This document shows positions 29,355 to 53,139 of a stretch of DNA of 64,000 nt, one piece after another. The stretch's first letter is position 1; each line of letters begins with the position of its first letter. This DNA comes from Escherichia coli (GTDB lineage Bacteria > Pseudomonadota > Gammaproteobacteria > Enterobacterales > Enterobacteriaceae), in the NCBI RefSeq assembly GCF_050920415.1, contig NZ_CP169309.1, one strand, 5' to 3'. A program made the position numbers and the translations under genes. The notes under the pieces are model-generated. The model was not told the origin of the DNA, did not search any database, and saw only the letters and a list, made by a program, of their open reading frames with translations.

Positions 29355-30287
29355 ATGAACTCAATTTTTACCGAAGAGAATCTGTTGGCATTTACTACCG
29401 CTGCGCGTTTTGGCAGCTTCAGTAAAGCTGCAGAAGAGTTGGGTTTAACCACTTCCGCCATTAGCTACACCATCAAGCGAATGGAAACAGGGCTGGATGT
29501 GGTGCTGTTCACTCGCAGTACCCGCAGCATTGAGTTAACGGAGTCCGGGCGTTATTTTTTCCGCAAAGCTACCGACCTGCTGAATGATTTTCACGCCATC
29601 AAACGCAGCATCGATACTATTTCGCAGGGCATAGAAGCGCGTGTGCGTATTTGTATTAATCAGCTGCTTTATACGCCCAAACACACCGCACGCTTATTAC
29701 AGGTACTGAAAAAGCAATTTCCAACCTGCCAGATTACCGTCACCACCGAAGTGTATAATGGCGTCTGGGATGCGATTATTAATAATCAGGCGAATATCGC
29801 TATCGGCGCACCCGACACGCTGCTGGACGGCGGCGGCATTGATTACACGGAGATTGGCGCGATTCGCTGGGCTTTTGCTATCGCCCCGGATCACCCGTTA
29901 GCCTTTGTGCCGGAACCCATCGCCGAAAGCCAACTACGTCTCTATCCTAATATCATGGTGGAAGACACCGCGCATACGATTAATAAAAAAGTGGGCTGGT
30001 TGCTGCATGGGCAGGAGTCGATTCTGGTGCCAGATTTCAACACCAAATGTCAGTGCCAGATTTTAGGCGAAGGAATTGGTTTTTTGCCGGATTACATGGT
30101 CCGTGAGGCGATGGCGCAATCCCTGCTGGTTACCCGACAAATCCATAATCCGCGCCAGGATTCACGCATGTTACTGGCGACCCAGCACTCTGCCACCGGT
30201 CAGGTGACGCAGTGGATTAAAAAACAATTTTCGCCAAATGGCATATTAACAGGGATCTATCAGGATTTACTGCATCGGGAGAATTAA
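29355..30287 (+). CDS. yahB: LysR-family transcriptional regulator YahB, 310 aa
   Basis: N-terminal LysR HTH (…FTTAARFGSFSKAAEELGLTTSAISYTIKRME…). Confidence 0.85.
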   Translation: MNSIFTEENLLAFTTAARFGSFSKAAEELGLTTSAISYTIKRMETGLDVVLFTRSTRSIELTESGRYFFRKATDLLNDFHAIKRSIDTISQGIEARVRICINQLLYTPKHTARLLQVLKKQFPTCQITVTTEVYNGVWDAIINNQANIAIGAPDTLLDGGGIDYTEIGAIRWAFAIAPDHPLAFVPEPIAESQLRLYPNIMVEDTAHTINKKVGWLLHGQESILVPDFNTKCQCQILGEGIGFLPDYMVREAMAQSLLVTRQIHNPRQDSRMLLATQHSATGQVTQWIKKQFSPNGILTGIYQDLLHREN

Positions 30288-30328
30288 TCGCTGCCAACCT
30301 CCCGATGCGCTGTGAATAGCGGTTTACC

Positions 30329-31312
30329 TCAACCACCTGCTTTCATTACCCATTCAGAGATAAATTTATTACCCGGTACTGGCGGAGAGTACAAATAGCC
30401 CTGCAAAAAGTGAACGCCTTTGCCGATCATTAAATCCGCCTGCTCCTGGGTTTCTACCCCTTCCGCCACGATACTCAGACCAGGCTTACGCGCCAGTTCG
30501 ACAATATTGTCCACAATATGACCGGAAATTTCGTCGACACTCGCCATTTGCACAAACGACTTGTCAATTTTAATAAAATCGACCGGAAACGCCTGCAAAT
30601 AACGATAGGTCGCATAACCCGTACCAAAGTCATCCAGCGCAAAGGTAATGTTGTGCTGATGAAGGCTGTCAAATATCGCTCTGGCTTCTGGCGTTACCGG
30701 AATGGGGTTGCGTTCCGTTAGCTCAAGAACCAGCTTGATTTTATCGTTACCTAATTTCTTGACCAGGTTCAGACACTCTTTTTCAAATCCTGCGGCCAAA
30801 AAACATCCTGCCGAGACGTTGATGCCAATATGGAAATTATCCGGCAGCAAATGTTTTACTGGCATCAGAATATCCGCAGTCTGTTTCATCAGCTGGCGAG
30901 TCATTATGACAATAAGACCGGATGACTCCGCCAGAGGAATAAACTGATCCGGTGGGATAATTCCCGTTTGCGGATGTTCCCAGCGAACAAGCACTTCACA
31001 GCCCGTCAGTACCCCTGTCTGCGCGCAGAAAACGGGCTGGATCCACGGTTTGAATTCGTGATTTTCCAACGCCAGACTGATGGCTTCAGGCGTGACGATA
31101 TGGTGACAACGGTTATCAGGAATATAAAAATTATTTTTATTTCCCTTGCCACTGATGACTTGCGGATGATATTGAAAAAAGATATCCCGCCAGAAAGTAA
31201 TATCACTCTGGATGCCTAATTTTTCATACAACTGCTTCTTCTGATGTGAAATTGTCTTTGCGCTACGATTTCTGTATTGTGATATTTCTGTAACCGACAT
31301 TCCCTCCATTAG
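30329..31312 (-). pseudogene. pdeL: pdeL (yahA) 3' portion encoding the EAL c-di-GMP phosphodiesterase domain, separated from its 5' end by IS2
   Basis: The track ORF 30329..31447 begins inside IS2: its first 45 codons are IS2 sequence, then it continues in frame as the PdeL HTH tail (…MSVTEISQYRNRSAKTISHQKKQLYEKLGIQ…) and EAL domain. Confidence 0.8.
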
Positions 31313-31403
31313 TAGACTGGCCCCCTGAATCTCCAGACAACCAGTATCACTTAAATAAGTGATAGTCTTAATACTAGTTTTTAGACTAGTCATTGGAGAA
31401 CAG

Positions 31404-31769
31404 ATGATTGATGTCTTAGGGCCGGAGAAACGCAGACGGCGTACCACACAGGAAAAGATCGCAATTGTTCAGCAGAGCTTTGAACCGGGGATGACGGTCT
31501 CCCTCGTTGCCCGGCAACATGGTGTAGCAGCCAGCCAGTTATTTCTCTGGCGTAAGCAATACCAGGAAGGAAGTCTTACTGCTGTCGCCGCCGGAGAACA
31601 GGTTGTTCCTGCCTCTGAACTTGCTGCCGCCATGAAGCAGATTAAAGAACTCCAGCGCCTGCTCGGCAAGAAAACGATGGAAAATGAACTCCTCAAAGAA
31701 GCCGTTGAATATGGACGGGCAAAAAAGTGGATAGCGCACGCGCCCTTATTGCCCGGGGATGGGGAGTAA
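31404..31769 (+). CDS. insC: IS2 OrfA (InsC), 121 aa, HTH protein
   Basis: [40 protein letters not shown]… matches remembered IS2 InsC; overlaps insD in the -1 frame (programmed frameshift arrangement). Confidence 0.85.
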
Positions 31770-32632
31770 GCTTAGTCAGCCGTTGTCTCCGGGTGTCGCG
31801 TGCGCAGTTGCACGTCATTCTCAGACGAACCGATGACTGGATGGATGGCCGCCGCAGTCGTCACACTGATGATACGGATGTGCTTCTCCGTATACACCAT
31901 GTTATCGGAGAGCTGCCCACGTATGGTTATCGTCGGGTATGGGCGCTGCTTCGCAGACAGGCAGAACTTGATGGTATGCCTGCGATCAATGCCAAACGTG
32001 TTTACCGGATCATGCGCCAGAATGCGCTGTTGCTTGAGCGAAAACCTGCTGTACCGCCATCGAAACGGGCACATACAGGCAGAGTGGCCGTGAAAGAAAG
32101 CAATCAGCGATGGTGCTCTGACGGGTTCGAGTTCTGCTGTGATAACGGAGAGAGACTGCGTGTCACGTTCGCGCTGGACTGCTGTGATCGTGAGGCACTG
32201 CACTGGGCGGTGACTACTGGCGGCTTCAACAGTGAAACAGTACAGGACGTCATGCTGGGAGCGGTGGAACGCCGCTTCGGCAACGATCTTCCGTCGTCTC
32301 CAGTGGAGTGGCTGACGGATAATGGTTCATGCTACCGGGCTAATGAAACACGCCAGTTCGCCCGGATGTTGGGACTTGAACCGAAGAACACGGCGGTGCG
32401 GAGTCCGGAGAGTAACGGAATAGCAGAGAGCTTCGTGAAAACGATAAAGCGTGACTACATCAGTATCATGCCCAAACCAGACGGGTTAACGGCAGCAAAG
32501 AACCTTGCAGAGGCGTTCGAGCATTATAACGAATGGCATCCGCATAGTGCGCTGGGTTATCGCTCGCCACGGGAATATCTGCGGCAGCGGGCTTGTAATG
32601 GGTTAAGTGATAACAGATGTCTGGAAATATAG
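31727..32632 (+). CDS. insD: IS2 OrfB (InsD) transposase with DDE/integrase core, 301 aa
   Basis: IS3-family transposase catalytic domain; length matches InsD. Confidence 0.85.
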
Positions 32633-32643
32633 GGGCAAATCCA

Positions 32644-32762
32644 ATTAGCAGCTTGAGTAAAAGCCGTTCTTTTTCGGACACGATACCAGGCAAGGTCAAA
32701 TTAACCGTTGCCCCGAACTCTTCCAAAAAAACACTCAAATCATGCGAAGCCATTGAACACAC
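32644..32762 (-). pseudogene. pdeL: pdeL (yahA) 5' fragment (first ~39 codons, start of the LuxR-type HTH)
   Basis: Minus-strand ORF starting at 32762 reads MCSMASHDLSVFLEEFGATVNLTLPGIVSEKERLLLKLL and then runs into the IS2 right end. Confidence 0.7.
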
Positions 32763-32894
32763 CTTGATGAAATCTTGTGCGCCAGCTAAATCTGCTTGTC
32801 TTCACTCTAACTGATAAAGCTGACTGCAAGAAAATGACACAGAGAGCCGAATTATCTCCCGTTCGGCTCTCTCTCCTTTTACTCATTATTCAGA

Positions 32895-35800
32895 TCAGAA
32901 TTGCCACTTAATGCCCACCATTGCAGAGGTGTCATTATATCCTCTATCGGCAACCTGAACGCCCACATTCCCCCAGACATTCAGGTTGGCATTTAGCTGT
33001 CCTTCCACCCCGGTTTTTATCTCAGCAATATTGCGGGCTCCATCCTGAGTGACGGACACGCCATCCATACTGGTGCTGAAATCCTTACTGTTATGCAGCC
33101 AGTTCACTTCTACAAACGGCTGGAACTCGCGGGATTTACTGTCATCCATTTTATGGTGGCTCTTCAGCCAGGTTTTTACGCCAAGTCGGGTTTGAACATT
33201 GCCATCACCGTTGCTATGAACGAGGGTTCCGTTGCTTTCGCGGTGATTATCGGCTTTGACTCCCATCCAGGTAACCTGTGCTTGCGGCTGAACATACCAT
33301 TCATTACGCGTTCCCTGGCTGCCATTAAATTCAGCTAATTTGTGTTTGTATCCAGCTTCCAGTGACGCGGTAAATCCTTTTGATTTATAGGATTCACTTT
33401 GTAAGTCATCCCCTTTCACTGTGTTATCAAACCAACTGTACTGCGCCCAACTGTCGAGATACGCGCCATTACGCGACTCGTCATCGGCATACCAGGTGGC
33501 ATAGAGGCCTGTGCTATATCCGTTCACACTCGCTTTTGCACGATAACCAGTGCGCGAGGAGGTCGTTTTGCTGTCGCTGTTGCCATATCCCGCCATGACC
33601 CCAATATGCCAGCGATCGCTGTCGTTTTGGCTCCACTGCGCGATATCGCCTCCCAGTTGCAGAACATAGCGATTGCTTTGGGTTTTCAGCTGGCCGCTGC
33701 CATCACGCCATTTATTATGACCCCCTTCATGGCGCATCCACATACTGGTTTGTTTCTGCTCACCCGTCACCATGTCGGTATAGTATGTATTTCCCAGACG
33801 CTCATGCAGACGCGTGTTGAACATGGTATTCGCTGCTGCAAGGTTCGCAATGTAGCTACCCGCCTCCGGTCGCAGGTCATTATCCACATTCAGATCCGGA
33901 CCCGGCGTAGGTGTCGGGTTAGGGTTCGGCTCTGGATTCGGGTTTGGCTCCGGATTCGGCATCGGGTCTGGCTCCGGCTGCAGTTCAGGAGAATCACTGC
34001 CGCTGGTCAGATACCAGTTACCACTATTTGCCCCTTGTCCACGCGCGAGAGTGTAGTCATATGCCCCCGCAACGATACGCCCAGCCTGAACAAATTCGCC
34101 CTCAGACTTACCGTCAACATGGATAAGTTCGATACCGTTAAGGGTTTTCGCACCTGTACCGCCAGCGTTATTCACCGTAACGGCAGTCGTGCCGCTAGTA
34201 TCGCCCTCGACAACCAATTTATCAGTTACTGAATCATCGCCATTCAGTACCGTATTCATTACCAGTTGGCCGTTATTACCGTAGTAGTTCCCCTTCACCA
34301 CCAACACGTTGCCAGCTTGCAGTCCTGACATCCCGGTCATCAGCGTACCGTTGTTGGTCAGATTGCCACCCAGGGTGTAATTCACTGGTGCAGCCGCTCT
34401 TTTTTCAGCGCTATTATTCAGCGCCAGGGTGCCGTTGTTCTCAATGTTTGCGTTACCCATTCCCTGCGCATGACTAACCAGGACATTAGCCGAGCTAGCA
34501 ATGTTCACATTCGCCGTCAGGTTGCTATTATCGCCCGCGATATCCAGCGTGCCGCCCTGAATATTCAGCTCTCCGCTTCCCGTTAACGAACCGGTTGAAG
34601 TGCCCCCGTTGGTAACCGTCAGACTCCCGCCGTTCAAGCTCAGCAGTGAATCGGCGCTGCCATTGAGCGTGCCCACGATCTGGCTGTGACCATTCATATC
34701 CAGTTCAGTCTCTGCCGCCAGACGCAGTTCATGGGTATTACCCAACACGTTATCGTTATTCAACAAAAGCGTCCCGCTGCGCAGATCGGTAATACCGGTA
34801 TAGTCGTTGTCTTTGTTAGAAAGCGATACGGTCTGACCTTTCTGGCTGCTGAAAGCCAGGTCACCACTGCCGGTAATCTTTGCACTAAGATCGGCGGCAT
34901 TCTCGCTCTTACCGTTGGCACTCAGCACCAGGGCATCACTGTCGGTAGCCTGCAATTCAAGCTGGGTCAGGCCGTAACCGATATACAGACCGTCATTGTT
35001 TACCCCACTCGTCAGACGATAGTCGTAAGTGCCGACGGCCGCTTTTTGCCCATTCTGCTGAATATCACGTTGGGCGCTGCTGGAGAGGATTTGCCCATTT
35101 TTATCCTGCAATTGCAGATTGCCCGCATCGCCCAGAACTTCCGCACCTTGCGCATCAACCAACTTAATGGTGCTGTTACCATCATCGACTTCAGTGAGCG
35201 ATAACGCAGAGTCAATATCACGAGATACTGAGCGGACAACGTCACTGTCAGAAACCTCAATCACACCCTCGCCGCGCAAATCCAGCGTTTTACTAACGTT
35301 GACTGTCCCTTCTGTCATCTGCGCGCCAGCGGTCAGGGCACCAAAATCAACGGTTCCGCCCGAGAATCCCAGAGTGCTAATGGAGTGAGCGCCCTTACCC
35401 ACTGTTATCTGGCTTCCCTGACCCGCAGTGATCCCGCCTTTCTGCAGAAACTCAGCATTTTTTTCCAGGTTAAATGTCGTGTTCTGGAATGCCAGTGCCC
35501 CCTGAAACCAGTCTGTATAAGCAAACTCATCGAAGGAGAATTCGTGATTCCCCATGTTTATTTCAACAACGCCTTTACCTTCAAGATCGTTATCAAACAC
35601 CCAATCTTTATTGGCATTAATTTGCAGTTTGCCATCAACATCCAGTTCTGCACGGCCGATGTTCTTATCTTCAGAAATAACAGCGACAGCATCGGAAGCG
35701 ACATCAATATATCCGCTGAATGCATAGTTATTGCCGATCAACTCCACCGTCCCACTGTCGATACTTATTGTACCGTTGCCGGAAATCTTATTGGCAAAGG

Positions 35801-36878
35801 TCATGCTATCGTCAGCCTTCAGGTGTAATTTCCCGCGGTTGGTGATTTCTGCTGTACCTATATTTTGGGTGATCCCTAAAGCCCCGTTTTTCTCAATTTT
35901 GACTTTGCCGCTAAAGGCGGAGTTATCACCGGTTAAGTAAGTTGTACCATTGAGCGCATTGATATAGCCCAGGCCCTCGCTGCCACTGACAATATCCGCG
36001 GAAATAGTCGCGTTTTTATCCGTGTGGTTTAAAGTGATTTTCTTATCTGATGTCGAAGCCCACACAAACTCAATTTTTTCGGCATCAATAATCCCTGCCG
36101 CCTTCGCTGCATTTCCTTCCTGTGCACCTAACGCCAACTCAGAGTTGGTGCTTAAACTAATAGTCGGCGCAGATACTTTTCCGCCTTCTGAAACGGCAAG
36201 TGTTGTATCGGAGTTTTGATTATAATAGCCCAGGCTAATTTGCTTACTGGCATTAACTTCACCGCCGTTATTAACTGACAGGTACTGATTACCACCGTAA
36301 CTGCTGTAAACGCCCATAAAGAAGGTTTCGGAATTTACCTGGCTACCTTCCCCACTGACATTTCCCTGCGTATAAGTCAGACGACTGGTGCCCTTAACAT
36401 GGATTTTGCCGCCGTTGGAGACATTAAAATAGCCGCGATCGTGTCTCATGCCTGAGTTTGATTCATACAAATCATCAGCATATAACTCGCTGCCAGCATT
36501 GGAGACATTCAGGAACCCCGTACCTTTCAGCAAAAAGTTAAGTGGGCCATTGATTGTTACCTTTCCTCCGGTAATATCCAACCCACCACCAGAAGCGAGA
36601 GTCAGACGCGGACGGGAAGTATCTGTCGCATTGATTACCAGATTGGCATTGTCAGTCACCGTAATATGGTAATCGATGCTCTGGTTCTCTTTGCCAAAAT
36701 CAATAGTTTTATCCTGGTTTACGATGACATCATCGGCGAATACCAGAGATGAATATAAACTTATCGCGCTAATTAAAACAGCCCGGGACTTTTTTCCTTT
36801 TACTCTGCTCCCCAGCTCAGAGCAAACGCTCCAACAGTTACGGGACCTGTTCCACTTTAGCCGATATATTTTATTCAT
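32895..36878 (-). CDS. ehaA: AIDA-I-type autotransporter adhesin, EhaA-like, about 1327 aa
   Basis: Extended autotransporter signal peptide (MNKIYRLKWNRSRNCWSV…), long Gly/Asn/Thr-rich passenger, Pro-rich linker PEPDPMPNPEPNPNPEPNPNPTPTP, C-terminal beta-barrel ending …GIKWQF; start set at MNKIYRLKW. Name assigned from memory of O157:H7 EhaA length and locus. Confidence 0.75.
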   Translation of the reverse strand: MNKIYRLKWNRSRNCWSVCSELGSRVKGKKSRAVLISAISLYSSLVFADDVIVNQDKTIDFGKENQSIDYHITVTDNANLVINATDTSRPRLTLASGGGLDITGGKVTINGPLNFLLKGTGFLNVSNAGSELYADDLYESNSGMRHDRGYFNVSNGGKIHVKGTSRLTYTQGNVSGEGSQVNSETFFMGVYSSYGGNQYLSVNNGGEVNASKQISLGYYNQNSDTTLAVSEGGKVSAPTISLSTNSELALGAQEGNAAKAAGIIDAEKIEFVWASTSDKKITLNHTDKNATISADIVSGSEGLGYINALNGTTYLTGDNSAFSGKVKIEKNGALGITQNIGTAEITNRGKLHLKADDSMTFANKISGNGTISIDSGTVELIGNNYAFSGYIDVASDAVAVISEDKNIGRAELDVDGKLQINANKDWVFDNDLEGKGVVEINMGNHEFSFDEFAYTDWFQGALAFQNTTFNLEKNAEFLQKGGITAGQGSQITVGKGAHSISTLGFSGGTVDFGALTAGAQMTEGTVNVSKTLDLRGEGVIEVSDSDVVRSVSRDIDSALSLTEVDDGNSTIKLVDAQGAEVLGDAGNLQLQDKNGQILSSSAQRDIQQNGQKAAVGTYDYRLTSGVNNDGLYIGYGLTQLELQATDSDALVLSANGKSENAADLSAKITGSGDLAFSSQKGQTVSLSNKDNDYTGITDLRSGTLLLNNDNVLGNTHELRLAAETELDMNGHSQIVGTLNGSADSLLSLNGGSLTVTNGGTSTGSLTGSGELNIQGGTLDIAGDNSNLTANVNIASSANVLVSHAQGMGNANIENNGTLALNNSAEKRAAAPVNYTLGGNLTNNGTLMTGMSGLQAGNVLVVKGNYYGNNGQLVMNTVLNGDDSVTDKLVVEGDTSGTTAVTVNNAGGTGAKTLNGIELIHVDGKSEGEFVQAGRIVAGAYDYTLARGQGANSGNWYLTSGSDSPELQPEPDPMPNPEPNPNPEPNPNPTPTPGPDLNVDNDLRPEAGSYIANLAAANTMFNTRLHERLGNTYYTDMVTGEQKQTSMWMRHEGGHNKWRDGSGQLKTQSNRYVLQLGGDIAQWSQNDSDRWHIGVMAGYGNSDSKTTSSRTGYRAKASVNGYSTGLYATWYADDESRNGAYLDSWAQYSWFDNTVKGDDLQSESYKSKGFTASLEAGYKHKLAEFNGSQGTRNEWYVQPQAQVTWMGVKADNHRESNGTLVHSNGDGNVQTRLGVKTWLKSHHKMDDSKSREFQPFVEVNWLHNSKDFSTSMDGVSVTQDGARNIAEIKTGVEGQLNANLNVWGNVGVQVADRGYNDTSAMVGIKWQF

Positions 36879-37408
36879 CACAATCTCCAGCAATACATCC
36901 AAATAAAACTAAGATTGCATAAACAGCAACGCATTAAATGCCATTCCGGTTACTGTTCATCGCATATAAAAATTCAAAAATTTTGCATAGCATTGACAAC
37001 CACATATCTGAGTATGTAGTTCAGAGGGTAATAAAATAGCAAGTTACTACTGAAAACTTATTTTAAGTTAACACTATTAACTTTATCATTACATTCCTCC
37101 CAGTCTCGAATACCTGCGCATTATATGTATCCAGGAACTCAAATCAACTCAAAATATAAACAAAAGCAGGAGGAATACACTTAATATACAGCCGATAAAA
37201 GTGGTAACTCTTATTAGGTATCAAAATATAAGAATCGTCTTATTAATAAATATATAACTCTATAGGACTGAATCCATTCAGCTAATACAAAATAAAATCG
37301 TTAATTAATAAAATATAAAATCATGAAGTGATACAAGAGGAATTGCAGGATATGACATGACAATCATATATAATATATGCATAATTTTTTACAGCGAGTC
37401 AATGATTT

Positions 37409-37438
37409 CCGCGCCATATGCAGACATGGCGCGGTTTT
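37409..37438 (+). terminator. Putative intrinsic terminator (9-bp GC stem + TTTT) abutting the betT 3' end
   Basis: CCGCGCCAT-atgcagac-ATGGCGCGG followed by TTTTAT on the plus strand; the T-run is only present in the plus orientation. Confidence 0.45.
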
Positions 37439-37450
37439 ATGCAATAACAA

Positions 37451-39484
37451 TCACGCGTCCGGGAACATCACGCTATGGCCCGGCGCTTCACGATGGAGAT
37501 GGATAAAGTTAAGGTGCCGCTCGTACTGGTCGAGAATATCGGTGATCACCTGCTCTTTGCTGTAGTCCATCAGGTCGTTGCCCTGGCTGCCTTCTAACAG
37601 GAAGGTTTCCAGCCGGTAGTAGGTCGATTTACCGCTACGTGCGCGGTAGGTAAAGCCCGGCACCGAATATTGCTGCGGCCAAATCTGATAGACAAAGTTT
37701 TGCTCTTCGCCCATATGCACCAACAAATCCAGATGCCCCAACTGTTGTCCCTCTTCCGGCGGCAGGCTTTTTAGCTCCACGTACGCGCCGCGCAACCGCA
37801 GCTCCTGCGCCACTTCTTCCATTGCCGGGTAACAGACCGTCTCCATCATCTGTTTAGTGTAACGCGTGCCCGGATAATTCATCAGGCGCGAGAGACGCTT
37901 TTTCCAGCTCAGGCGATCCTGAACGCTCAATGGCCGCGGTGCAGTATCACGACTCGCACTTTCCCGGCGATAATCTTCAACTTTCAGCGATTTATACAAT
38001 CCCGCCATGACGAAGAAAATCACAAAACTAAACGGCAGCCCCATGATGACCGTGGTGTTTTGTAGCGCGGATATCCCGTTGGTCATTAACATACCGAGCG
38101 TCAGCAGACCAATGGCAACCGACCAGAATACACGCAGCCAGCCCGGCGCGTCGCTGTTGATATCTTTAAGCTGCGAGGTGAAATTCCCCAGCACCAGCGC
38201 CCCGGAATCTGCCGAAGTTACATAGAACAGCAGACCCGTAATGGTGGCAACCGAGGCGCTAAAGGTAAATGCCGGATACTGCGCCAACAGGCTGTAGAAG
38301 CCGCGCTCCGGATGGACCATCGCTTCCTGGGCAAATGCCGCGCCGCCGTGGATGATTTCATACAGCGCGCTATTGCCGAACACCGAGAGCCATAACAGCG
38401 TGAAGGTAAACGGAATAATCAACGTCCCCAGCACGAACTGGCGAATGGTGCGCCCACGCGAGATACGCGCCAGGAACAGGCCGACAAACGGCGACCAGGC
38501 CACCCACCATGCCCAGAAAAAGAGCGTCCAGTTATTCATCCACTCCACCGGGCGGTCAAAGGCGAAACTGTTGAGCGTCATGCCCATAAAGCGGTTGACG
38601 TAATCGCCGACGTTCAGCACCAGCGCATTGAGCAGGAACGAGGTGTCGCCCATAAACAGCACGAACAGGATCAGCCCCAGCGCCAGTGCGACATTGAGTT
38701 CAGACAATACGCGAATGCCTTTGTCGACACCGGATGTCACCGAGATAGTCGCGATAATCACCGACAGCGCGATCAGCGCCGCTTTCGCCGCCATTGAATC
38801 CGGAATATCAAACAGTACGCTCAGGCCATAGTTAAGCTGCACCACGCCAATGCCGAGCGTGGTGGCAATCCCGAAGATGGTTCCGATCACCGCGGCAATA
38901 TCCACCGAGTGACCAATCGGCCCGTTGATCCGTTTACCGAAAATCGGATACAGCGCCGAGCGGATGGTGAGCGGCAAATTATAACGATAGCTGAAGTATC
39001 CGAGCGCCATGCCCATCAGCGCATACATCGACCAGCCGGTTAAGCCGTAGTGAAACAGCGTCCAGACCATCGCCTGACGCGCGGCCTCAATCGTCTGACC
39101 CGCGCCTTCCGGCGGCTGCATATACTGCGTTACCGGTTCGGCTACGGAGAAGAACATCAGGTCGATACCGATCCCGGCAGCAAACAGCATCGCCGCCCAG
39201 CTCAGCAGGCTGAACTCAGGCTTAGACTGCTCGGGCCCGAGTTTCACCGAACCAAAGCGCGAACAGGCAATGCAGACCACAAAGACAATATAGAGCGTTG
39301 CCGCTAACAGATAGTACCAACCAAAAGTTTTAGAAACCCAGTCCAGCGTGCGGCCAATCCACAGGGCCGAGAAGTCGCGAAACAGGATCGTTGTCAGGGA
39401 AAACAACAAAATCAGTCCGGCGGAGGTGTAAAACACCACCGGATTGATTTTGTCCTTTTCCCTGCTGTGCGAAAGGTCTGTCAT
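37451..39484 (-). CDS. betT: Choline transporter BetT (BCCT family), 677 aa
   Basis: BCCT-family membrane protein with long C-terminal cytoplasmic extension; divergent from betIBA. Confidence 0.9.
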   Translation of the reverse strand: MTDLSHSREKDKINPVVFYTSAGLILLFSLTTILFRDFSALWIGRTLDWVSKTFGWYYLLAATLYIVFVVCIACSRFGSVKLGPEQSKPEFSLLSWAAMLFAAGIGIDLMFFSVAEPVTQYMQPPEGAGQTIEAARQAMVWTLFHYGLTGWSMYALMGMALGYFSYRYNLPLTIRSALYPIFGKRINGPIGHSVDIAAVIGTIFGIATTLGIGVVQLNYGLSVLFDIPDSMAAKAALIALSVIIATISVTSGVDKGIRVLSELNVALALGLILFVLFMGDTSFLLNALVLNVGDYVNRFMGMTLNSFAFDRPVEWMNNWTLFFWAWWVAWSPFVGLFLARISRGRTIRQFVLGTLIIPFTFTLLWLSVFGNSALYEIIHGGAAFAQEAMVHPERGFYSLLAQYPAFTFSASVATITGLLFYVTSADSGALVLGNFTSQLKDINSDAPGWLRVFWSVAIGLLTLGMLMTNGISALQNTTVIMGLPFSFVIFFVMAGLYKSLKVEDYRRESASRDTAPRPLSVQDRLSWKKRLSRLMNYPGTRYTKQMMETVCYPAMEEVAQELRLRGAYVELKSLPPEEGQQLGHLDLLVHMGEEQNFVYQIWPQQYSVPGFTYRARSGKSTYYRLETFLLEGSQGNDLMDYSKEQVITDILDQYERHLNFIHLHREAPGHSVMFPDA

Positions 39485-39549
39485 CCAGTATCCCCACTAT
39501 TATTGTTACCATTTAAAATCAAATTCGTAACAATTAAGACACATTTTAT

Positions 39550-39567
39550 ATTGAACGTCCAATCAAT
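39550..39567. promoter_or_regulatory. Candidate BetI operator in the betT–betI divergent promoter region
   Basis: Inverted repeat ATTGA-N8-TCAAT (ATTGAACGTCCAATCAAT) in the 128-bp AT-rich spacer; assignment to BetI is by context. Confidence 0.35.
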
Positions 39568-39612
39568 AACCGCTTTAATAGATTAACAACGCTGATGAAT
39601 GGAGTGGCAAAA

Positions 39613-40200
39613 ATGCCCAAATTGGGGATGCAGTCGATCCGGCGCAGACAACTGATCGACGCCACGCTGGAAGCAATAAATGAAGTAGGTATGCACGATG
39701 CGACGATCGCGCAGATCGCCCGCCGGGCGGGCGTTTCCACCGGGATCATTAGCCACTATTTCAAAGATAAAAATGGTCTGCTGGAAGCAACCATGCGTGA
39801 TATCACCAGCCAGCTGCGTGACGCGGTCTTGAACCGCTTACACGCGCTACCGGATGGCAGCCCTGAGCAGCGATTACAGGCGATTGTTGACGGAAATTTC
39901 GATGAGACTCAGGTCAGTAATGCTGCGATGAAAGCCTGGCTGGCGTTTTGGGCCAGCAGTATGCATCAGCCGATGCTTTACCGTTTGCAGCAGGTGAGCA
40001 GCCGCCGCTTGTTGTCGAATCTGGTGAGCGAATTTCACCGCGAGTTACCGCGCAAAGAGGCACAGGAGGCAGGTTATGGCCTGGCCGCGCTGATTGACGG
40101 TTTATGGCTGCGCGCGGCATTGAGCGGTAAACCGCTGGATAAACCTCTCGCACACTCGCTGACCCGTCACTTTATTACTCAGCATTTACCCACCGATTAA
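39613..40200 (+). CDS. betI: TetR-family repressor BetI, 195 aa
   Basis: Start set at [24 protein letters not shown]…; TetR HTH. Confidence 0.85.
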
Positions 40201-40213
40201 CCGAGGAGACGTG

Positions 40214-41686
40214 ATGTCCCGAATGGCAGAACAGCAGCTTTATATACATGGTGGTTATACCTCCGCCACCAGCGGTCGCACCTTCGAGACCATTAACCCG
40301 GCCAACGGTAACGTGCTGGCAACCGTGCAGGCCGCCGGGCGCGAAGATGTCGATCGCGCCGTGAAGAGTGCCCAACAAGGGCAAAAAATCTGGGCGGCGA
40401 TGACCGCCATGGAACGCTCGCGCATTCTGCGTCGGGCCGTTGATATTGTGCGCGAACGCAATGACGAACTCGCTAAACTGGAAACCCTCGACACCGGAAA
40501 AGCGTATTCAGAAACCTCAACCGTCGATATCGTTACCGGCGCGGACGTGCTCGAGTACTACGCCGGGCTGATCCCGTCGCTGGAAGGCAGCCAGATCCCG
40601 CTACGCGAGACGTCGTTTGTTTATACCCGCCGTGAACCGCTGGGCGTGGTCGCCGGAATTGGCGCATGGAATTACCCGATTCAGATTGCTTTGTGGAAAT
40701 CCGCACCGGCGCTGGCGGCAGGCAACGCGATGATTTTCAAACCGAGCGAAGTCACCCCGCTTACCGCGTTAAAGCTGGCCGAAATTTACAGCGAAGCGGG
40801 CCTGCCGGACGGCGTATTTAACGTGTTGCCGGGCGTGGGCGCAGAGACCGGGCAGTATCTGACCGAGCATCCGGGCATTGCCAAAGTGTCATTTACCGGC
40901 GGCGTTGCCAGCGGTAAAAAAGTGATGGCTAACTCGGCGGCCTCTTCCCTGAAAGAAGTGACCATGGAACTGGGCGGTAAATCACCGCTGATCGTTTTCG
41001 ACGATGCAGACCTCGATCTCGCCGCCGATATCGCCATGATGGCGAACTTCTTCAGCTCCGGCCAAGTGTGTACCAACGGCACCCGCGTGTTCGTTCCGGC
41101 GAAATGCAAAGTCGCATTTGAGCAAAAGATTCTCACGCGCGTTGAACGCATTCGCGCGGGCGACGTTTTCGATCCGCAAACTAACTTCGGCCCGCTGGTC
41201 AGCTTCCCGCATCGCGATAACGTGCTGCGCTATATCGCTAAAGGCAAAGAGGAAGGCGCGCGCGTACTGTGCGGCGGCGATGTGCTGAAGGGTGATGGCT
41301 TCGATAACGGCGCATGGGTTGCACCGACCGTGTTCACCGATTGCCGCGACGAAATGACTATCGTGCGCGAAGAGATCTTCGGCCCGGTGATGTCGCTCCT
41401 CACGTATGAGTCTGAAGACGAAGTGATTCGCCGCGCCAATGATACCGACTACGGTCTGGCGGCGGGTATCGTCACGGCGGATCTGAACCGCGCGCATCGC
41501 GTCATTCATCAGCTGGAAGCGGGTATTTGCTGGGTCAACACCTGGGGAGAATCCCCGGCGGAGATGCCCGTTGGCGGCTACAAACACTCCGGCATTGGTC
41601 GCGAGAACGGCGTGATGACGCTCCAGAGTTACACCCAGGTGAAGTCCATCCAGGTTGAGATGGCTAAATTCCAGTCCATATTCTAA
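40214..41686 (+). CDS. betB: Betaine-aldehyde dehydrogenase BetB, about 490 aa
   Basis: Aldehyde dehydrogenase family with catalytic Cys region (…[15 protein letters not shown]…); 10 bp downstream of betI. Confidence 0.9.
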
Positions 41687-48609: not shown

Positions 48610-49935
48610 ATGAATAAATATCAGGCAGTTATTATTGGTTTTGGCAAGGCTGGAAAAACATTAGCCGTCACGCTGGCAAAAGCAGGTTGGCGTGTGGCTC
48701 TCATCGAACAATCAAATGCAATGTATGGCGGGACCTGTATTAATATCGGCTGTATCCCAACCAAAACATTGGTTCATGACGCACAGCAGCACACAGATTT
48801 TGTCCGTGCCATACAGCGTAAAAATGAAGTGGTTAATTTTTTACGTAATAAGAATTATCATAATCTTGCGGATATGCCCAATATCGACGTGATCGACGGC
48901 CAGGCGGAGTTTATCAATAATCATAGCCTGCGTGTTCATCGGCCTGGGGGAAATCTGGAGATTCATGGCGAGAAAATTTTTATTAATACCGGTGCACAAG
49001 CCGTGGTTCCGCCAATTCCTGGAATTACCACCACGCCTGGTGTATATGACAGCACCGGATTACTTAATCTAAAAGAATTGCCTGGGCATTTAGGTATTTT
49101 GGGCGGCGGATATATTGGCGTTGAGTTCGCCTCTATGTTCGCTAATTTTGGCAGCAAAGTAACCATTTTAGAGGCAGCTTCGCTGTTTTTGCCTCGGGAA
49201 GATCGGGATATTGCTGATAATATCGCGACGATTTTACGCGATCAGGGCGTCGATATGATCCTCAATGCCCATGTGGAGCGAATCAGTCACCATCAAAATC
49301 AAGTGCAAGTGCATAGCGAGCACGCCCAACTGGCGGTGGATGCACTGTTAATAGCTTCCGGTCGTCAACCGGCTACCGCTTCGTTACATCCAGAAAATGC
49401 CGGTATCGCAGTAAACGAGCGCGGGGCAATTGTCGTTGACAAGCGATTACATACCACCGCAGACAATATTTGGGCGATGGGAGATGTTACCGGCGGGCTG
49501 CAATTTACTTACATATCACTGGATGATTACCGCATTGTGCGTGATGAGTTGCTGGGAGAAGGCAGACGTAGTACTGATGATCGGAAAAATGTGCCTTATT
49601 CCGTATTCATGACACCGCCCCTGTCCAAGGTTGGTATGACAGAAGAGCAAGCCAGAGAGAATGGTGCTGATATTCAGGTGGTGACATTGCCTGTAGCTGC
49701 AATTCCGCGCGCCAGAGTGATGAACGATACCCGTGGGGTATTAAAAGCAATTGTTGATAATAAAACCCAACGTATATTAGGGGCATCACTGCTGTGTGTT
49801 GACTCCCACGAGATGATCAATATAGTGAAAATGGTGATGGATGCCGGGCTGCCTTATAGCATATTACGCGATCAGATATTTACTCATCCGTCGATGAGCG
49901 AATCACTCAATGATCTATTTTCATTAGTCAAATAA
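48610..49935 (+). CDS. rclA: Pyridine-nucleotide-disulfide oxidoreductase RclA (YkgC), 441 aa
   Basis: FAD-binding GFGKAG motif and redox-active CINIGC disulfide motif; start set at MNKYQAVIIGFG…. Confidence 0.85.
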   Translation: MNKYQAVIIGFGKAGKTLAVTLAKAGWRVALIEQSNAMYGGTCINIGCIPTKTLVHDAQQHTDFVRAIQRKNEVVNFLRNKNYHNLADMPNIDVIDGQAEFINNHSLRVHRPGGNLEIHGEKIFINTGAQAVVPPIPGITTTPGVYDSTGLLNLKELPGHLGILGGGYIGVEFASMFANFGSKVTILEAASLFLPREDRDIADNIATILRDQGVDMILNAHVERISHHQNQVQVHSEHAQLAVDALLIASGRQPATASLHPENAGIAVNERGAIVVDKRLHTTADNIWAMGDVTGGLQFTYISLDDYRIVRDELLGEGRRSTDDRKNVPYSVFMTPPLSKVGMTEEQARENGADIQVVTLPVAAIPRARVMNDTRGVLKAIVDNKTQRILGASLLCVDSHEMINIVKMVMDAGLPYSILRDQIFTHPSMSESLNDLFSLVK

Positions 49936-52161: not shown

Positions 52162-53019
52162 ATGATCAGGCAGAAGATTCTACAGCAGCTCCTGGAGTGG
52201 ATTGAGTGCAATCTTGAGCACCCTATTTCAATCGAAGATATCGCACAGAAATCTGGCTACAGCAGGCGCAACATCCAGCTTCTGTTCCGAAATTTCATGC
52301 ATGTGCCTTTAGGAGAATACATTCGCAAACGAAGGCTTTGTCGCGCCGCCATTCTTGTCCGGCTCACCGCGAAATCTATGCTTGATATTGCACTCTCTTT
52401 GCATTTTGATTCACAGCAGTCATTCAGCCGCGAATTTAAAAAGTTATTCGGCTGCTCTCCCCGTGAATACCGCCACCGTGATTATTGGGATCTCGAAAAT
52501 ATCTTCCCTTCTTTTTTAATACGTCAACAGCAAAAGACGGAGTGTAGATTAGTCAACTTTCCTGAGACACCTATTTTTGGCAATTCATTTAAATATGATA
52601 TTGAAGTGTCGAATAAATCACCGGATGAAGAAGTCGAACTGCGACTTCATCATTTAGCCAGATGTATGAAGAATTTTAAGACGGATATCTATTTCGTCTC
52701 CACGTTTAAACCGTCAACAAAATCGGTCGATTTGCTGACAGTTGAAACTTTTGCCGGTACGGTATGTAAACAAACCGATTCAGAGATGCCGAAAGAGTGG
52801 ATAATTAACCGAGGACTGTATGCCTCTTTCCGCTATGAAGGTGAGTGGGAGCACTACCCTGAATGGGCGCGAAACCTCTATCTGATGGAATTACCTGCCA
52901 GGGGGTTAGCCAGAGTGAACGGCAGTGATATTGAGCGATTTTATTACAATGAAGATTTCGTAGAAAAGGATAGCAATGATGTTGTTTGCGAAATATTTAT
53001 CCCTGTTCGTCCGGTTTAG
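52162..53019 (+). CDS. ykgA: Rob-like AraC-family regulator with C-terminal GyrI-like effector domain (YkgA), intact
   Basis: N-terminal MarA/Rob-type double HTH (…ILQQLLEWIECNLEHPISIEDIAQKSGYSRRNIQLLFRNF…); start set at MIRQKILQ…. Confidence 0.7.
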   Translation: MIRQKILQQLLEWIECNLEHPISIEDIAQKSGYSRRNIQLLFRNFMHVPLGEYIRKRRLCRAAILVRLTAKSMLDIALSLHFDSQQSFSREFKKLFGCSPREYRHRDYWDLENIFPSFLIRQQQKTECRLVNFPETPIFGNSFKYDIEVSNKSPDEEVELRLHHLARCMKNFKTDIYFVSTFKPSTKSVDLLTVETFAGTVCKQTDSEMPKEWIINRGLYASFRYEGEWEHYPEWARNLYLMELPARGLARVNGSDIERFYYNEDFVEKDSNDVVCEIFIPVRPV

Positions 53020-53139
53020 TTATCGCTATGTCTAAATGAATTTATAACAAGACTACTGTCAGGCAATTCAATAAATAATGGCGTTGAAGATGTCAACGCC
53101 ATTATTGTTTATTAGAATGTTACTTTCATACTCTTAATA

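What the first reader, a model, noticed from the sequence alone, without database searches (positions are those of the whole stretch)
32895..37450. EhaA-like AIDA-type autotransporter island between pdeL and betT with a slippage-prone Pro-rich linker
A roughly 1327-aa autotransporter with extended signal peptide and C-terminal barrel occupies a site that is gene-free in K-12 as I recall it. Upstream of its start lies about 570 bp of very AT-rich DNA (36879..37450), typical of H-NS-silenced acquired adhesin promoters. The linker PEPDPMPNPEPNPNPEPNPNPTPTP is encoded by short direct DNA repeats (about 33896..33980) that could vary in copy number.
Basis: partly seen in the sequence, partly recalled or inferred. 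Interest (0 to 1): 0.5.

Follow-up and report, generated by a model that had tools for sequence, protein, structure and literature searches.

The report
Known E. coli adhesin gene ehaA
This is an intact copy of ehaA, a well-studied surface adhesin gene that about a quarter of E. coli strains carry between betT and pdeL, so the finding is correct but ordinary; its upstream DNA shares regulatory elements with the K-12 pdeL upstream region, which I did not find described.

Summary
Window 32895..36878 (- strand) encodes an intact 1327-aa type Va autotransporter. It is 97% identical, without gaps, to EhaA of E. coli O157:H7, sits between betT and pdeL, and RefSeq names it ehaA. This is O-island 15 (S-loop 24) of EHEC, described in 2007-2008.

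It has an ESPR signal peptide, a passenger ending in an autochaperone/pertactin module, a Pro-rich linker and a complete AIDA-I-like barrel. Full-length copies occur in 1385 of 5426 complete E. coli genomes; 3656 carry the K-12-type 834-bp spacer instead.

The linker does vary (one, two or three PEPNPN units), but only in about 11 of about 1395 genomes and always in frame, so it is not a phase switch.

The upstream 530 bp is 29.6% GC. It is not wholly foreign: a module of about 175 bp is homologous to the K-12 pdeL upstream region, with an identical Cra-box-like palindrome and an identical TTGATY-N16-TATAAT promoter at the same spacing. An ortholog at the same locus in E. whittamii, host-like GC content and no mobility genes argue against recent acquisition.

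In this strain IS2 splits the neighbouring pdeL gene.

Verdict: already known, low interest. The regulatory link is an untested lead.

The parts
32895..36878 (-). ehaA coding sequence, 1327 codons plus stop; an intact type Va autotransporter adhesin
   Evidence: 100% nt identity to ehaA of strain MFDS1022581; 97% aa identity, no gaps, to O157:H7 EhaA
36735..36878 (-). Extended signal peptide (ESPR), residues 1-48. Cleavage after VFA48 is inferred, not tested.
   Evidence: Pfam PF13018 covers residues 1-38, E 1.4e-9. The hydrophobic core and the A48|DD site are read from the translation.
33993..36734 (-). Passenger domain, residues 49-962, presumed beta-helix. Its N-terminal 750 residues match no named Pfam family.
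   Evidence: only weak PATR repeats. Relatives at 48-60% identity occur in Citrobacter, Buttiauxella and Pantoea.
34047..34364 (-). Autochaperone / pertactin-like module at the C-terminal end of the passenger (residues 839-944)
   Evidence: Pfam AC_1 E 4.9e-28 and Pertactin E 1.9e-7. PDB IcsA autochaperone entries 3ML3 and 5KE1 match residues 739-966 at E 1e-28.
33897..33989 (-). Pro-rich linker, residues 964-994. Two 18-bp PEPNPN units lie at 33918..33953.
   Evidence: Population length variants.
32898..33878 (-). Translocation unit: alpha-helical plug plus 12-stranded beta-barrel, residues 1001-1327, ending in KWQF
   Evidence: Pfam PF03797 covers residues 1046-1305. TIGR01414 is matched across almost its full length (positions 4-432 of 432). 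PDB 4MEE (AIDA-I translocator) E 1.4e-91.
32841..32872 (.). GC-rich hairpin with an 11-12 bp stem, starting 23 nt past the ehaA stop. It is terminator-like; the U-tract on the ehaA strand is weak (GUGUCAUUUUCUU).
36879..37408 (-). AT-rich upstream region of ehaA (29.6% GC)
37120..37147 (-). Best sigma-70-like promoter upstream of ehaA: TTGATT-N16-TATAAT. A start site about 235 nt before the ATG is inferred.
   Evidence: Invariant in O157, strain 06-00048 and E. whittamii. Homologous to K-12 L003 6011..6038.
37266..37282 (.). Cra-box-like palindrome GCTGAATGGATTCAGTC, identical to a 17-mer in the K-12 pdeL upstream region
   Evidence: Occurs once in the 64-kb window and once in the 9-kb K-12 locus. 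Invariant in five haplotypes. Assigning it to Cra rests on the published Cra consensus, recalled from memory.
37409..37434 (.). betT terminator hairpin. This is the left edge of the DNA that differs from K-12, and the only part of the query that non-carrier genomes match.
32644..32753 (-). First 110 nt of pdeL, cut off by IS2. Homology to K-12 resumes at window 32768.
31313..32643 (+). IS2, 1331 bp, with a 5-bp target duplication CTAAT (31308-31312 and 32644-32648). It interrupts pdeL.
   Evidence: NCBIfam IS2 transposase 727.6 bits against a cut-off of 597. Ends read. The insertion is absent from the closest genome. The junction is unique among 5426 genomes.
30329..31312 (-). Remaining 3' part of pdeL (EAL domain)

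Best explanation
The locus is ehaA, the single gene of O-island 15 of EHEC, here as an intact allele in a non-O157 E. coli.

Shown by sequence: EhaA is a classical monomeric (type Va) autotransporter adhesin. It has an extended ESPR signal peptide, a long passenger ending in an autochaperone/pertactin module, a Pro-rich spacer, and a complete AIDA-I-like 12-stranded barrel.

Inferred from established knowledge of the family: the signal peptide directs Sec export; the barrel is inserted in the outer membrane by BAM (and TAM); the passenger is threaded out C-terminus first and folds on the autochaperone into a beta-helix; the Pro-rich spacer holds the passenger away from the barrel.

From the literature: surface EhaA causes cell aggregation, biofilm formation and adhesion to bovine terminal-rectum epithelial cells.

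The gene is not a mobile island. It is one of two old alternative haplotypes of the betT-pdeL interval, presumably exchanged by homologous recombination through the flanking genes.

Inferred: transcription probably starts from a conserved TTGATT-N16-TATAAT promoter in the AT-rich upstream region. About 150 bp upstream of that promoter lies a conserved Cra-box-like palindrome.
For: Identity: 1285/1327 residues match O157:H7 EhaA with no gaps. Nucleotide identity is 100% to ehaA of MFDS1022581 and 96.4% to O157:H7; RefSeq names the product 'autotransporter adhesin EhaA'.

Architecture: ESPR, AC_1, Pertactin and Autotransporter beta-domain. TIGR01414 barrel 417.8 bits, and C-terminal matches to the MisL and AIDA-I models that run to their ends. 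PDB AIDA-I translocator E 1.4e-91 and IcsA autochaperone E 1e-28.

Literature: OI-15 holds the single ORF ehaA (z0402), with aggregation, biofilm and bovine rectal cell adhesion phenotypes (PMC8565820, citing Wells 2008). ECs0362 / S-loop 24 is absent from K-12 and ExPEC and present in all tested O157, O26, O111 and O103 strains (PMC2323221).

Population: 1385 of 5426 genomes hold a full-length copy; 3656 hold the K-12-type spacer.

Not mobile: no boundary repeats; flanks are betT and pdeL, with no integrase or tRNA gene; CDS GC is 49.6% against 50.1% for the window. An E. whittamii ortholog lies next to pdeL at 89.8% nt identity, against 92.9% for the flank.

Promoter.
Against: No expression, localisation or adhesion data exist for this allele. 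It differs from the tested O157 protein at 42 residues, mostly in the passenger. No NCBIfam model reaches its curated cut-off; the best is the ECSE_1600 family at 761 bits against 2335, so the name rests on pairwise identity and RefSeq annotation. The transcription start site is predicted, not measured. The beta-helix fold of the N-terminal 750 residues was not modelled here.
Confidence: 0.95

Rival explanations
1. Regulatory co-option. The promoter upstream of ehaA is the counterpart of the Cra- and PdeL-activated, H-NS-silenced pdeL promoter of K-12. In carrier strains that promoter would drive the adhesin, and perhaps pdeL as well by read-through. EhaA display would then be tied to carbon flux and c-di-GMP level.
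For: A module of about 175 bp is shared between the two haplotypes. The 17-mer GCTGAATGGATTCAGTC and the block CATATAATGCGC are identical, and the distance between them is 154-157 bp in K-12, B2 strain JJ1887, the window, O157 and E. whittamii. Shuffle tests gave 1 of 300 for the first block and 0 of 1000 for the independent segment up to the -10. The palindrome occurs once in 64 kb and once in the K-12 locus. In K-12, pdeL transcription needs Cra and PdeL bound upstream of the promoter and is silenced by H-NS (bioRxiv 10.1101/2021.10.01.462762). The 141-nt ehaA-pdeL spacer contains no sigma-70-like site at the scan threshold, and the terminator has a poor U-tract on the ehaA strand.
Against: I could not find the mapped K-12 pdeL start site or the published sequence of the Cra box, so equating these blocks with the experimental sites is inference. 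The palindrome lies about 160 bp upstream of the predicted start, which is far for a simple activator. The preprint says RNA polymerase alone binds the pdeL promoter poorly, which fits badly with a 10-of-12 consensus promoter. The PdeL boxes could not be located. No paper in the library mentions pdeL and ehaA together in this sense.
Confidence: 0.4
2. Recently acquired foreign island with a xenogeneic, H-NS-silenced promoter.
For: The gene is absent from K-12 and from B2/ExPEC strains. The upstream DNA is 29.6% GC, among the lowest in the window. In K-12 the pdeL promoter region, which includes the homologous stretch, is H-NS-silenced.
Against: The CDS has host-like GC content. There are no mobility genes or boundary repeats. 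An ortholog sits next to pdeL in E. whittamii at species-level divergence. The K-12 spacer is just as AT-rich (33.2% GC) and shares the promoter module. The H-NS high-affinity motif has no match within 2 mismatches in the upstream region.
Confidence: 0.2
3. The Pro-rich linker is a contingency repeat whose slippage tunes or switches the adhesin.
For: Alleles with one (1321 aa), two (1327 aa) and three (1333 aa) PEPNPN units exist, plus a 1323-aa allele. They occur in O157, O103 and O111 strains and in isolates without a stated serotype. O157 alleles carry a 14-bp exact repeat spaced 18 bp apart.
Against: About 1380 of about 1395 carriers have the standard length. All variants are multiples of 3 nt, so no on/off frameshift is possible. 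In this window's allele synonymous differences cut the longest exact repeat to 9 bp.
Confidence: 0.05

Closest known systems
EhaA (Z0402 / ECs0362) of E. coli O157:H7, O-island 15 / S-loop 24 (Wells et al. 2008)
   Same: 97% aa identity over all 1327 residues with no gaps. Same betT-ehaA-pdeL position, same linker, same 5' region.
   Different: 42 substitutions, mostly in the passenger. In this strain the neighbouring pdeL is split by IS2. The frame upstream of the ATG is closed by a TAG here but stays open for 22 codons in O157.
AIDA-I of diarrhoeagenic E. coli (translocator structure PDB 4MEE)
   Same: The alpha-helix plus beta-barrel translocation unit is clearly homologous (residues 1001-1327, E 1.4e-91). 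Both are type Va adhesins with a Pro-rich junction.
   Different: Neither Pfam scan listed an AIDA-repeat family (PF16168, named from memory) among the passenger's hits. The NCBIfam AIDA-I model scores 337 bits against a cut-off of 1200, and its best-scoring stretch is confined to the C-terminus. There is no adjacent glycosyltransferase gene.
Group 8 autotransporter adhesins: MisL, ShdA, IcsA, YfaL/EhaC, UpaE, EhaJ (Clarke et al. 2022)
   Same: A published classification places EhaA here (PMC9289746). The MisL model scores 504.7 bits; the IcsA autochaperone structures match residues 739-966.
   Different: All scores are far below the equivalog cut-offs. No host receptor is known for EhaA.
K-12 pdeL promoter region (Cra box, PdeL boxes, H-NS sites; Reinders et al.)
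   Same: Identical Cra-box-like 17-mer and identical core promoter block at the same spacing.
   Different: In carrier strains the first gene downstream of this module is ehaA, not pdeL. DNA upstream of the palindrome and downstream of the -10 shows no homology between the haplotypes.

Membership tests
EhaA ortholog group (E. coli O157:H7 Z0402) | Near-full-length, high-identity match to O157:H7 EhaA | tested here: met
   1285/1327 identical, 0 gaps
EhaA ortholog group (E. coli O157:H7 Z0402) | Chromosomal position between betT and pdeL (OI-15) | tested here: met
   literature
EhaA ortholog group (E. coli O157:H7 Z0402) | Mediates autoaggregation, biofilm formation and adhesion to bovine rectal epithelium | not testable with these tools
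   Known only for the O157 allele
Type Va (classical monomeric) autotransporter | N-terminal Sec signal peptide, here the extended ESPR type | tested here: met
   PF13018 covers residues 1-38, E 1.4e-9
Type Va (classical monomeric) autotransporter | Complete C-terminal 12-stranded beta-barrel ending in an aromatic residue | tested here: met
   PF03797 model positions 1-254 of 255; TIGR01414 positions 4-432 of 432; the protein ends KWQF
Type Va (classical monomeric) autotransporter | Passenger with a C-terminal autochaperone / beta-helix cap | tested here: met
   AC_1 E 4.9e-28 and Pertactin E 1.9e-7; IcsA autochaperone structures
AIDA-I / self-associating autotransporter (SAAT) group | Passenger built of roughly 19-residue AIDA-type repeats | tested here: not met
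   No AIDA-repeat family appears among the Pfam hits. The AIDA-I NCBIfam model's best-scoring stretch covers only residues 1001-1327.
AIDA-I / self-associating autotransporter (SAAT) group | Adjacent heptosyltransferase gene (aah/tibC type) | tested here: not met
   The neighbours are betT and pdeL only
AIDA-I / self-associating autotransporter (SAAT) group | AIDA-I-like translocation unit | tested here: met
   PDB 4MEE E 1.4e-91 over residues 1001-1327
Mobile genomic island | Integrase or transposase, a tRNA or att site, flanking direct repeats, deviant composition | tested here: not met
   No boundary repeats. There are no mobility genes inside 32769..37410; the IS2 lies outside, in pdeL. 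CDS GC is 49.6% against 50.1% for the window.
Phase-variable contingency locus (simple-sequence repeat) | Repeat-number changes that shift the reading frame or the promoter spacing | tested here: not met
   The unit is 18 bp. The observed variants are -18, -12, +6 and +18 nt, all in frame.
Cra regulon member | Cra binding site upstream of the promoter | tested here: inconclusive
   A palindrome CTGAA-N4-TTCAG is present, unique and conserved. Cra binding itself cannot be tested here.

The most novel reading that the evidence does not exclude
In the quarter of E. coli strains that carry ehaA, and in E. whittamii, the adhesin gene lies between pdeL and what looks like pdeL's own regulatory module. 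The Cra-box-like palindrome and core promoter found upstream of pdeL in K-12, where pdeL transcription is known to depend on Cra and PdeL and to be silenced by H-NS, are conserved base for base and at the same spacing upstream of ehaA. If that module drives ehaA, alone or as an ehaA-pdeL operon, then display of a biofilm adhesin would be wired to central carbon flux and to a bistable c-di-GMP switch. The pdeL regulation worked out in K-12 would then describe only one of two ancient haplotypes. In this window's strain, IS2 inactivation of pdeL would remove the proposed co-activator.
Probability: 0.35. Interest if true: 0.45.

Novelty: already known. Interest (0 to 1): 0.12.

Why it matters
As a gene call it adds nothing new. 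EhaA / OI-15 has been known since 2007-2008 and is routinely annotated. It is used as a virulence-associated marker and as a surface-display scaffold.

Two things have some value. First, the linker was surveyed across about 1400 genomes and is essentially fixed in length. Second, the two betT-pdeL haplotypes share a conserved Cra-box/promoter module. That second point gives a cheap, testable hypothesis for how ehaA is regulated. It also cautions that K-12 pdeL promoter studies may not transfer to EHEC and phylogroup B1 strains.

Tried and rejected
- Exact-sequence cluster look-up for the window and O157 EhaA proteins: neither is in that collection. Linker variation was measured by DNA searches instead.
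- Rfam scan of 30000..41000 at E up to 1: no match.
- Boundary direct or inverted repeats around 32769..37410: only short chance-level pairs.
- H-NS high-affinity motif TCGATAAATT (recalled from memory), up to 2 mismatches: no hit in the ehaA upstream region. H-NS silencing therefore rests on AT content and on the K-12 analogy alone.
- Published K-12 pdeL start site and Cra-box sequence: Reinders 2016 and Shimada 2011 are not held. The preprint and its supplement give the sites only in figures.
- K-12 spacer as a simple ehaA deletion scar: rejected. Both haplotypes have unique DNA on either side of the shared module, with no detectable homology.
- The 372-aa ORF at 30329..31447: rejected as a real pdeL. 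It is the pdeL 3' part read on into IS2.
The one-base discrepancy was a BLAST gap at the IS2 junction.

Full report
**1. What is in the sequence**

The longest ORF in the interval runs 32895..36902 on the minus strand. Its first ATG, at 36878, has GGAG 8 nt upstream and gives 1327 residues starting MNKIYRLKWNRSRNCW. An in-frame TAG at 36909..36911 closes the frame just upstream in this strain. O157 and E. whittamii have TGG there, and the frame stays open for 22 more codons. Pfam's ESPR model aligns from residue 1, which supports the annotated start.

The flanking genes are betT (37451..39484, NCBIfam BetT 1315 bits) and pdeL.

The 530 bp between the ehaA ATG and the betT terminator are 29.6% GC, against 50.1% for the window. 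This is the second most AT-rich 500-bp stretch in the 64 kb.

**2. Identity**

A megablast of 32895..37450 against 5426 complete E. coli genomes gives a 100% match to ehaA of strain MFDS1022581. Other carriers, including O157:H7, match at about 95-96.4%. All are annotated 'autotransporter adhesin EhaA' and lie in the order betT-ehaA-pdeL. The protein matches O157:H7 EhaA at 1285 of 1327 residues with no gap.

The literature identifies this as O-island 15 of EDL933, with the single ORF z0402. Overexpression gives cell aggregates, biofilm and adhesion to bovine terminal-rectum cells, and a deletion mutant shows reduced adherence in pig ileal loops (PMC8565820). It is also S-loop 24 / ECs0362 of Sakai, absent from K-12 and four ExPEC strains and present in all tested O157, O26, O111 and O103 strains (PMC2323221). 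The locus is therefore already known.

**3. Architecture and mechanism**

| Feature | Residues | Evidence |
|---|---|---|
| ESPR signal peptide | 1-38 | |
| AC_1 autochaperone | 839-944 | |
| Pertactin | 867-958 | |
| Pro-rich stretch | 963-998 | |
| Autotransporter beta-domain | 1046-1305 | |

NCBIfam's barrel model and the C-terminal parts of the MisL and AIDA-I models are matched to their last positions. The protein ends KWQF, so the barrel is complete.

Among solved structures, the AIDA-I translocator (4MEE) matches residues 1001-1327 at E 1.4e-91. The IcsA autochaperone (3ML3, 5KE1) matches residues 739-966.

Neither Pfam scan listed an AIDA-repeat family, and the AIDA-I model's best-scoring stretch is confined to the C-terminus. 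A 2022 classification places EhaA with MisL, ShdA, YfaL, IcsA, UpaE and EhaJ (PMC9289746). 'AIDA-type' is thus accurate for the translocation unit and loose for the passenger.

The mechanism is inferred from family knowledge, not shown here. It comprises Sec export slowed by the ESPR, barrel insertion by BAM/TAM, C-to-N passenger threading nucleated by the autochaperone, and a surface-anchored beta-helix that mediates cell-cell and cell-host adhesion.

**4. Is it an island?**

Relative to K-12, the differing DNA is window 32769..37410 (4642 bp). K-12 has 820 bp of other sequence there, inside its 874-bp betT-pdeL spacer, holding only the 25-codon yahV.

Across 5426 genomes, 1385 carry full-length ehaA and 3656 carry the K-12-type spacer, including B2 strains at about 93% identity. 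Non-carriers share only the 40-42 nt betT terminator with the query.

Several observations argue against a mobile or recently acquired element:

- There are no boundary repeats.
- There are no mobility genes inside the segment.
- The CDS is 49.6% GC.
- In a scan of one genome per species, the only full-length relative outside E. coli is in E. whittamii (92% aa), again immediately upstream of pdeL. It is 89.8% identical at the nucleotide level, against 92.9% for the pdeL-yahB flank. One 96% hit labelled Collinsella is a 5.1-kb contig from a metagenome-assembled genome, which I read as E. coli contamination.

This looks like an old presence/absence polymorphism kept at one site, not a recent import. 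The whole window is 91-98% identical to K-12, so the region is generally divergent.

**5. The linker**

The peptide PEPDPMPNPEPNPNPEPNPNPTPTP is residues 968-992 (window 33903..33977). Two PEPNPN units occupy 33918..33953. In this allele the units differ at synonymous sites, so the longest exact repeat is 9 bp. O157 alleles have a 14-bp exact repeat spaced 18 bp apart.

Two surveys measured length variation. A 301-bp query sampled at even steps down the ranking gave 58 of 59 ehaA hits with unchanged length. A query carrying the one-unit allele then sorted carriers by length:

| Allele | Protein length | Genomes |
|---|---|---|
| One unit | 1321 aa | 3 (including O157:H7 RIMD 0509939 and LSU61) |
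| 12-nt-shorter allele | 1323 aa | 3 |
| Three units | 1333 aa | 4 (O103 RM8385, O111:H11 and another) |
| Divergent linker (strain 06-00048) | 1329 aa | 1 |
| Standard, two units | 1327 aa | about 1380 |

E. whittamii has a longer linker. But variants make up about 0.8% of carriers and are always in frame, so this is not a phase-variation device.

**6. The upstream region is partly shared with K-12**

Aligning the K-12 spacer with the ehaA upstream region shows two things beyond the betT terminator:

- an identical 17-mer, GCTGAATGGATTCAGTC;
- about 155 bp further on, ATTTT(C/G)AGTTGAT(C/T)TG...CATATAATGCGC.

Shuffle tests support homology. The best local alignment is reached by 1 of 300 dinucleotide shuffles. 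The independent segment from the palindrome to the -10 is reached by 0 of 1000. DNA upstream of the palindrome and downstream of the -10 is no better than chance.

The palindrome CTGAA-N4-TTCAG occurs once in the 64-kb window and once in the 9-kb K-12 locus. It closely matches the Cra consensus as I recall it.

The promoter scan picks TTGATT-N16-TATAAT (window 37147..37120) as the best minus-strand site. Its K-12 homologue, TTGATC-N16-TATAAT, scores 10 of 12, tied for best in the K-12 spacer. Palindrome, promoter and their spacing (154-157 bp) are invariant in K-12, B2 strain JJ1887, the window, O157 and E. whittamii. The DNA between them has diverged by about 40%.

In K-12, pdeL transcription requires Cra and PdeL bound upstream of the promoter and is silenced by H-NS (bioRxiv 10.1101/2021.10.01.462762). 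It follows, as inference, that carrier strains have ehaA sitting between a pdeL-type regulatory module and pdeL. Downstream of ehaA there is a strong hairpin with a weak U-tract, then 141 nt with no sigma-70-like site before pdeL.

I found no paper that links the two genes in this way.

Caveats:

- I could not retrieve the mapped pdeL start site or the Cra-box sequence.
- The palindrome lies about 160 bp from the predicted start.
- The preprint reports that RNA polymerase alone binds the pdeL promoter poorly.

**7. Context in this strain**

An IS2 (31313..32643, target duplication CTAAT) splits pdeL after nucleotide 110. The real pdeL ATG is at 32753. The closest genome has an intact pdeL, and no complete genome shares this junction. 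The 372-aa ORF at 30329..31447 is an artefact of reading into IS2.

**8. Verdict**

The feature is the known gene ehaA (OI-15), intact and ordinary, so interest is low. The only lead beyond the known is the shared Cra-box/promoter module, which is a testable regulatory hypothesis.

Noticed in passing
window 31313..32643 (IS2); pdeL fragments 32644..32753 and 30329..31312: IS2, with a 5-bp CTAAT target duplication, splits the c-di-GMP phosphodiesterase/regulator gene pdeL after nt 110. The nearest genome (MFDS1022581) has an intact pdeL. No other complete E. coli genome of 5426 shares this junction. One strain (A10) has a different IS3-family element at a similar spot in pdeL.
   Followed up: yes
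window 37116..37286 versus K-12 L003 5869..6042: A Cra-box-like palindrome and a TTGATY-N16-TATAAT promoter are conserved base for base, with the same spacing, between the ehaA upstream region and the K-12 pdeL upstream region. The surrounding DNA is unrelated.
   Followed up: yes
window 16225..21487: A 5.3-kb segment between yahK and yahJ is absent from K-12. In the near-identical genome it is annotated as an AI-2-type sugar ABC transporter (substrate-binding protein, ATPase, two permeases) plus an ASCH-domain gene.
   Followed up: partly
window 49807..49813 (rclA); L034 18005..30336: The otherwise near-identical strain MFDS1022581 carries a 12.3-kb element inside rclA, annotated with an integrase, primase, capsid protein, head-tail connector and PerC-family regulator. 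It resembles a phage satellite. The window lacks it and appears to have rclA uninterrupted.
   Followed up: partly
L007 1..4000 (E. whittamii Sa2BVA5): E. whittamii keeps ehaA-pdeL but lacks ykgH-betABIT. ykgG is followed by the last 26 nt of betT plus its terminator, then the ehaA upstream region.
   Followed up: partly
whole window versus K-12 296-364 kb: The whole 64-kb stretch is only 91-98% identical to K-12 in 1-kb bins, lowest over betT-betA at 91-94%. O157 is also only about 95-96% identical to the window here. This seems to me high for a within-species comparison.
   Followed up: partly
window 36909..36944: An ATG 22 codons upstream is in frame with ehaA. The frame is open in O157 and E. 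whittamii (TGG) but closed by a TAG in this strain, leaving an 11-codon upstream ORF (MAFNALLFMQS).
   Followed up: partly
window 52823..56517: Another segment has no K-12 counterpart in the alignment. It lies where K-12 has the IS3-disrupted eaeH/ykgA pseudogenes, so it may hold an intact eaeH (fdeC)-type adhesin gene. It was not examined.
   Followed up: no
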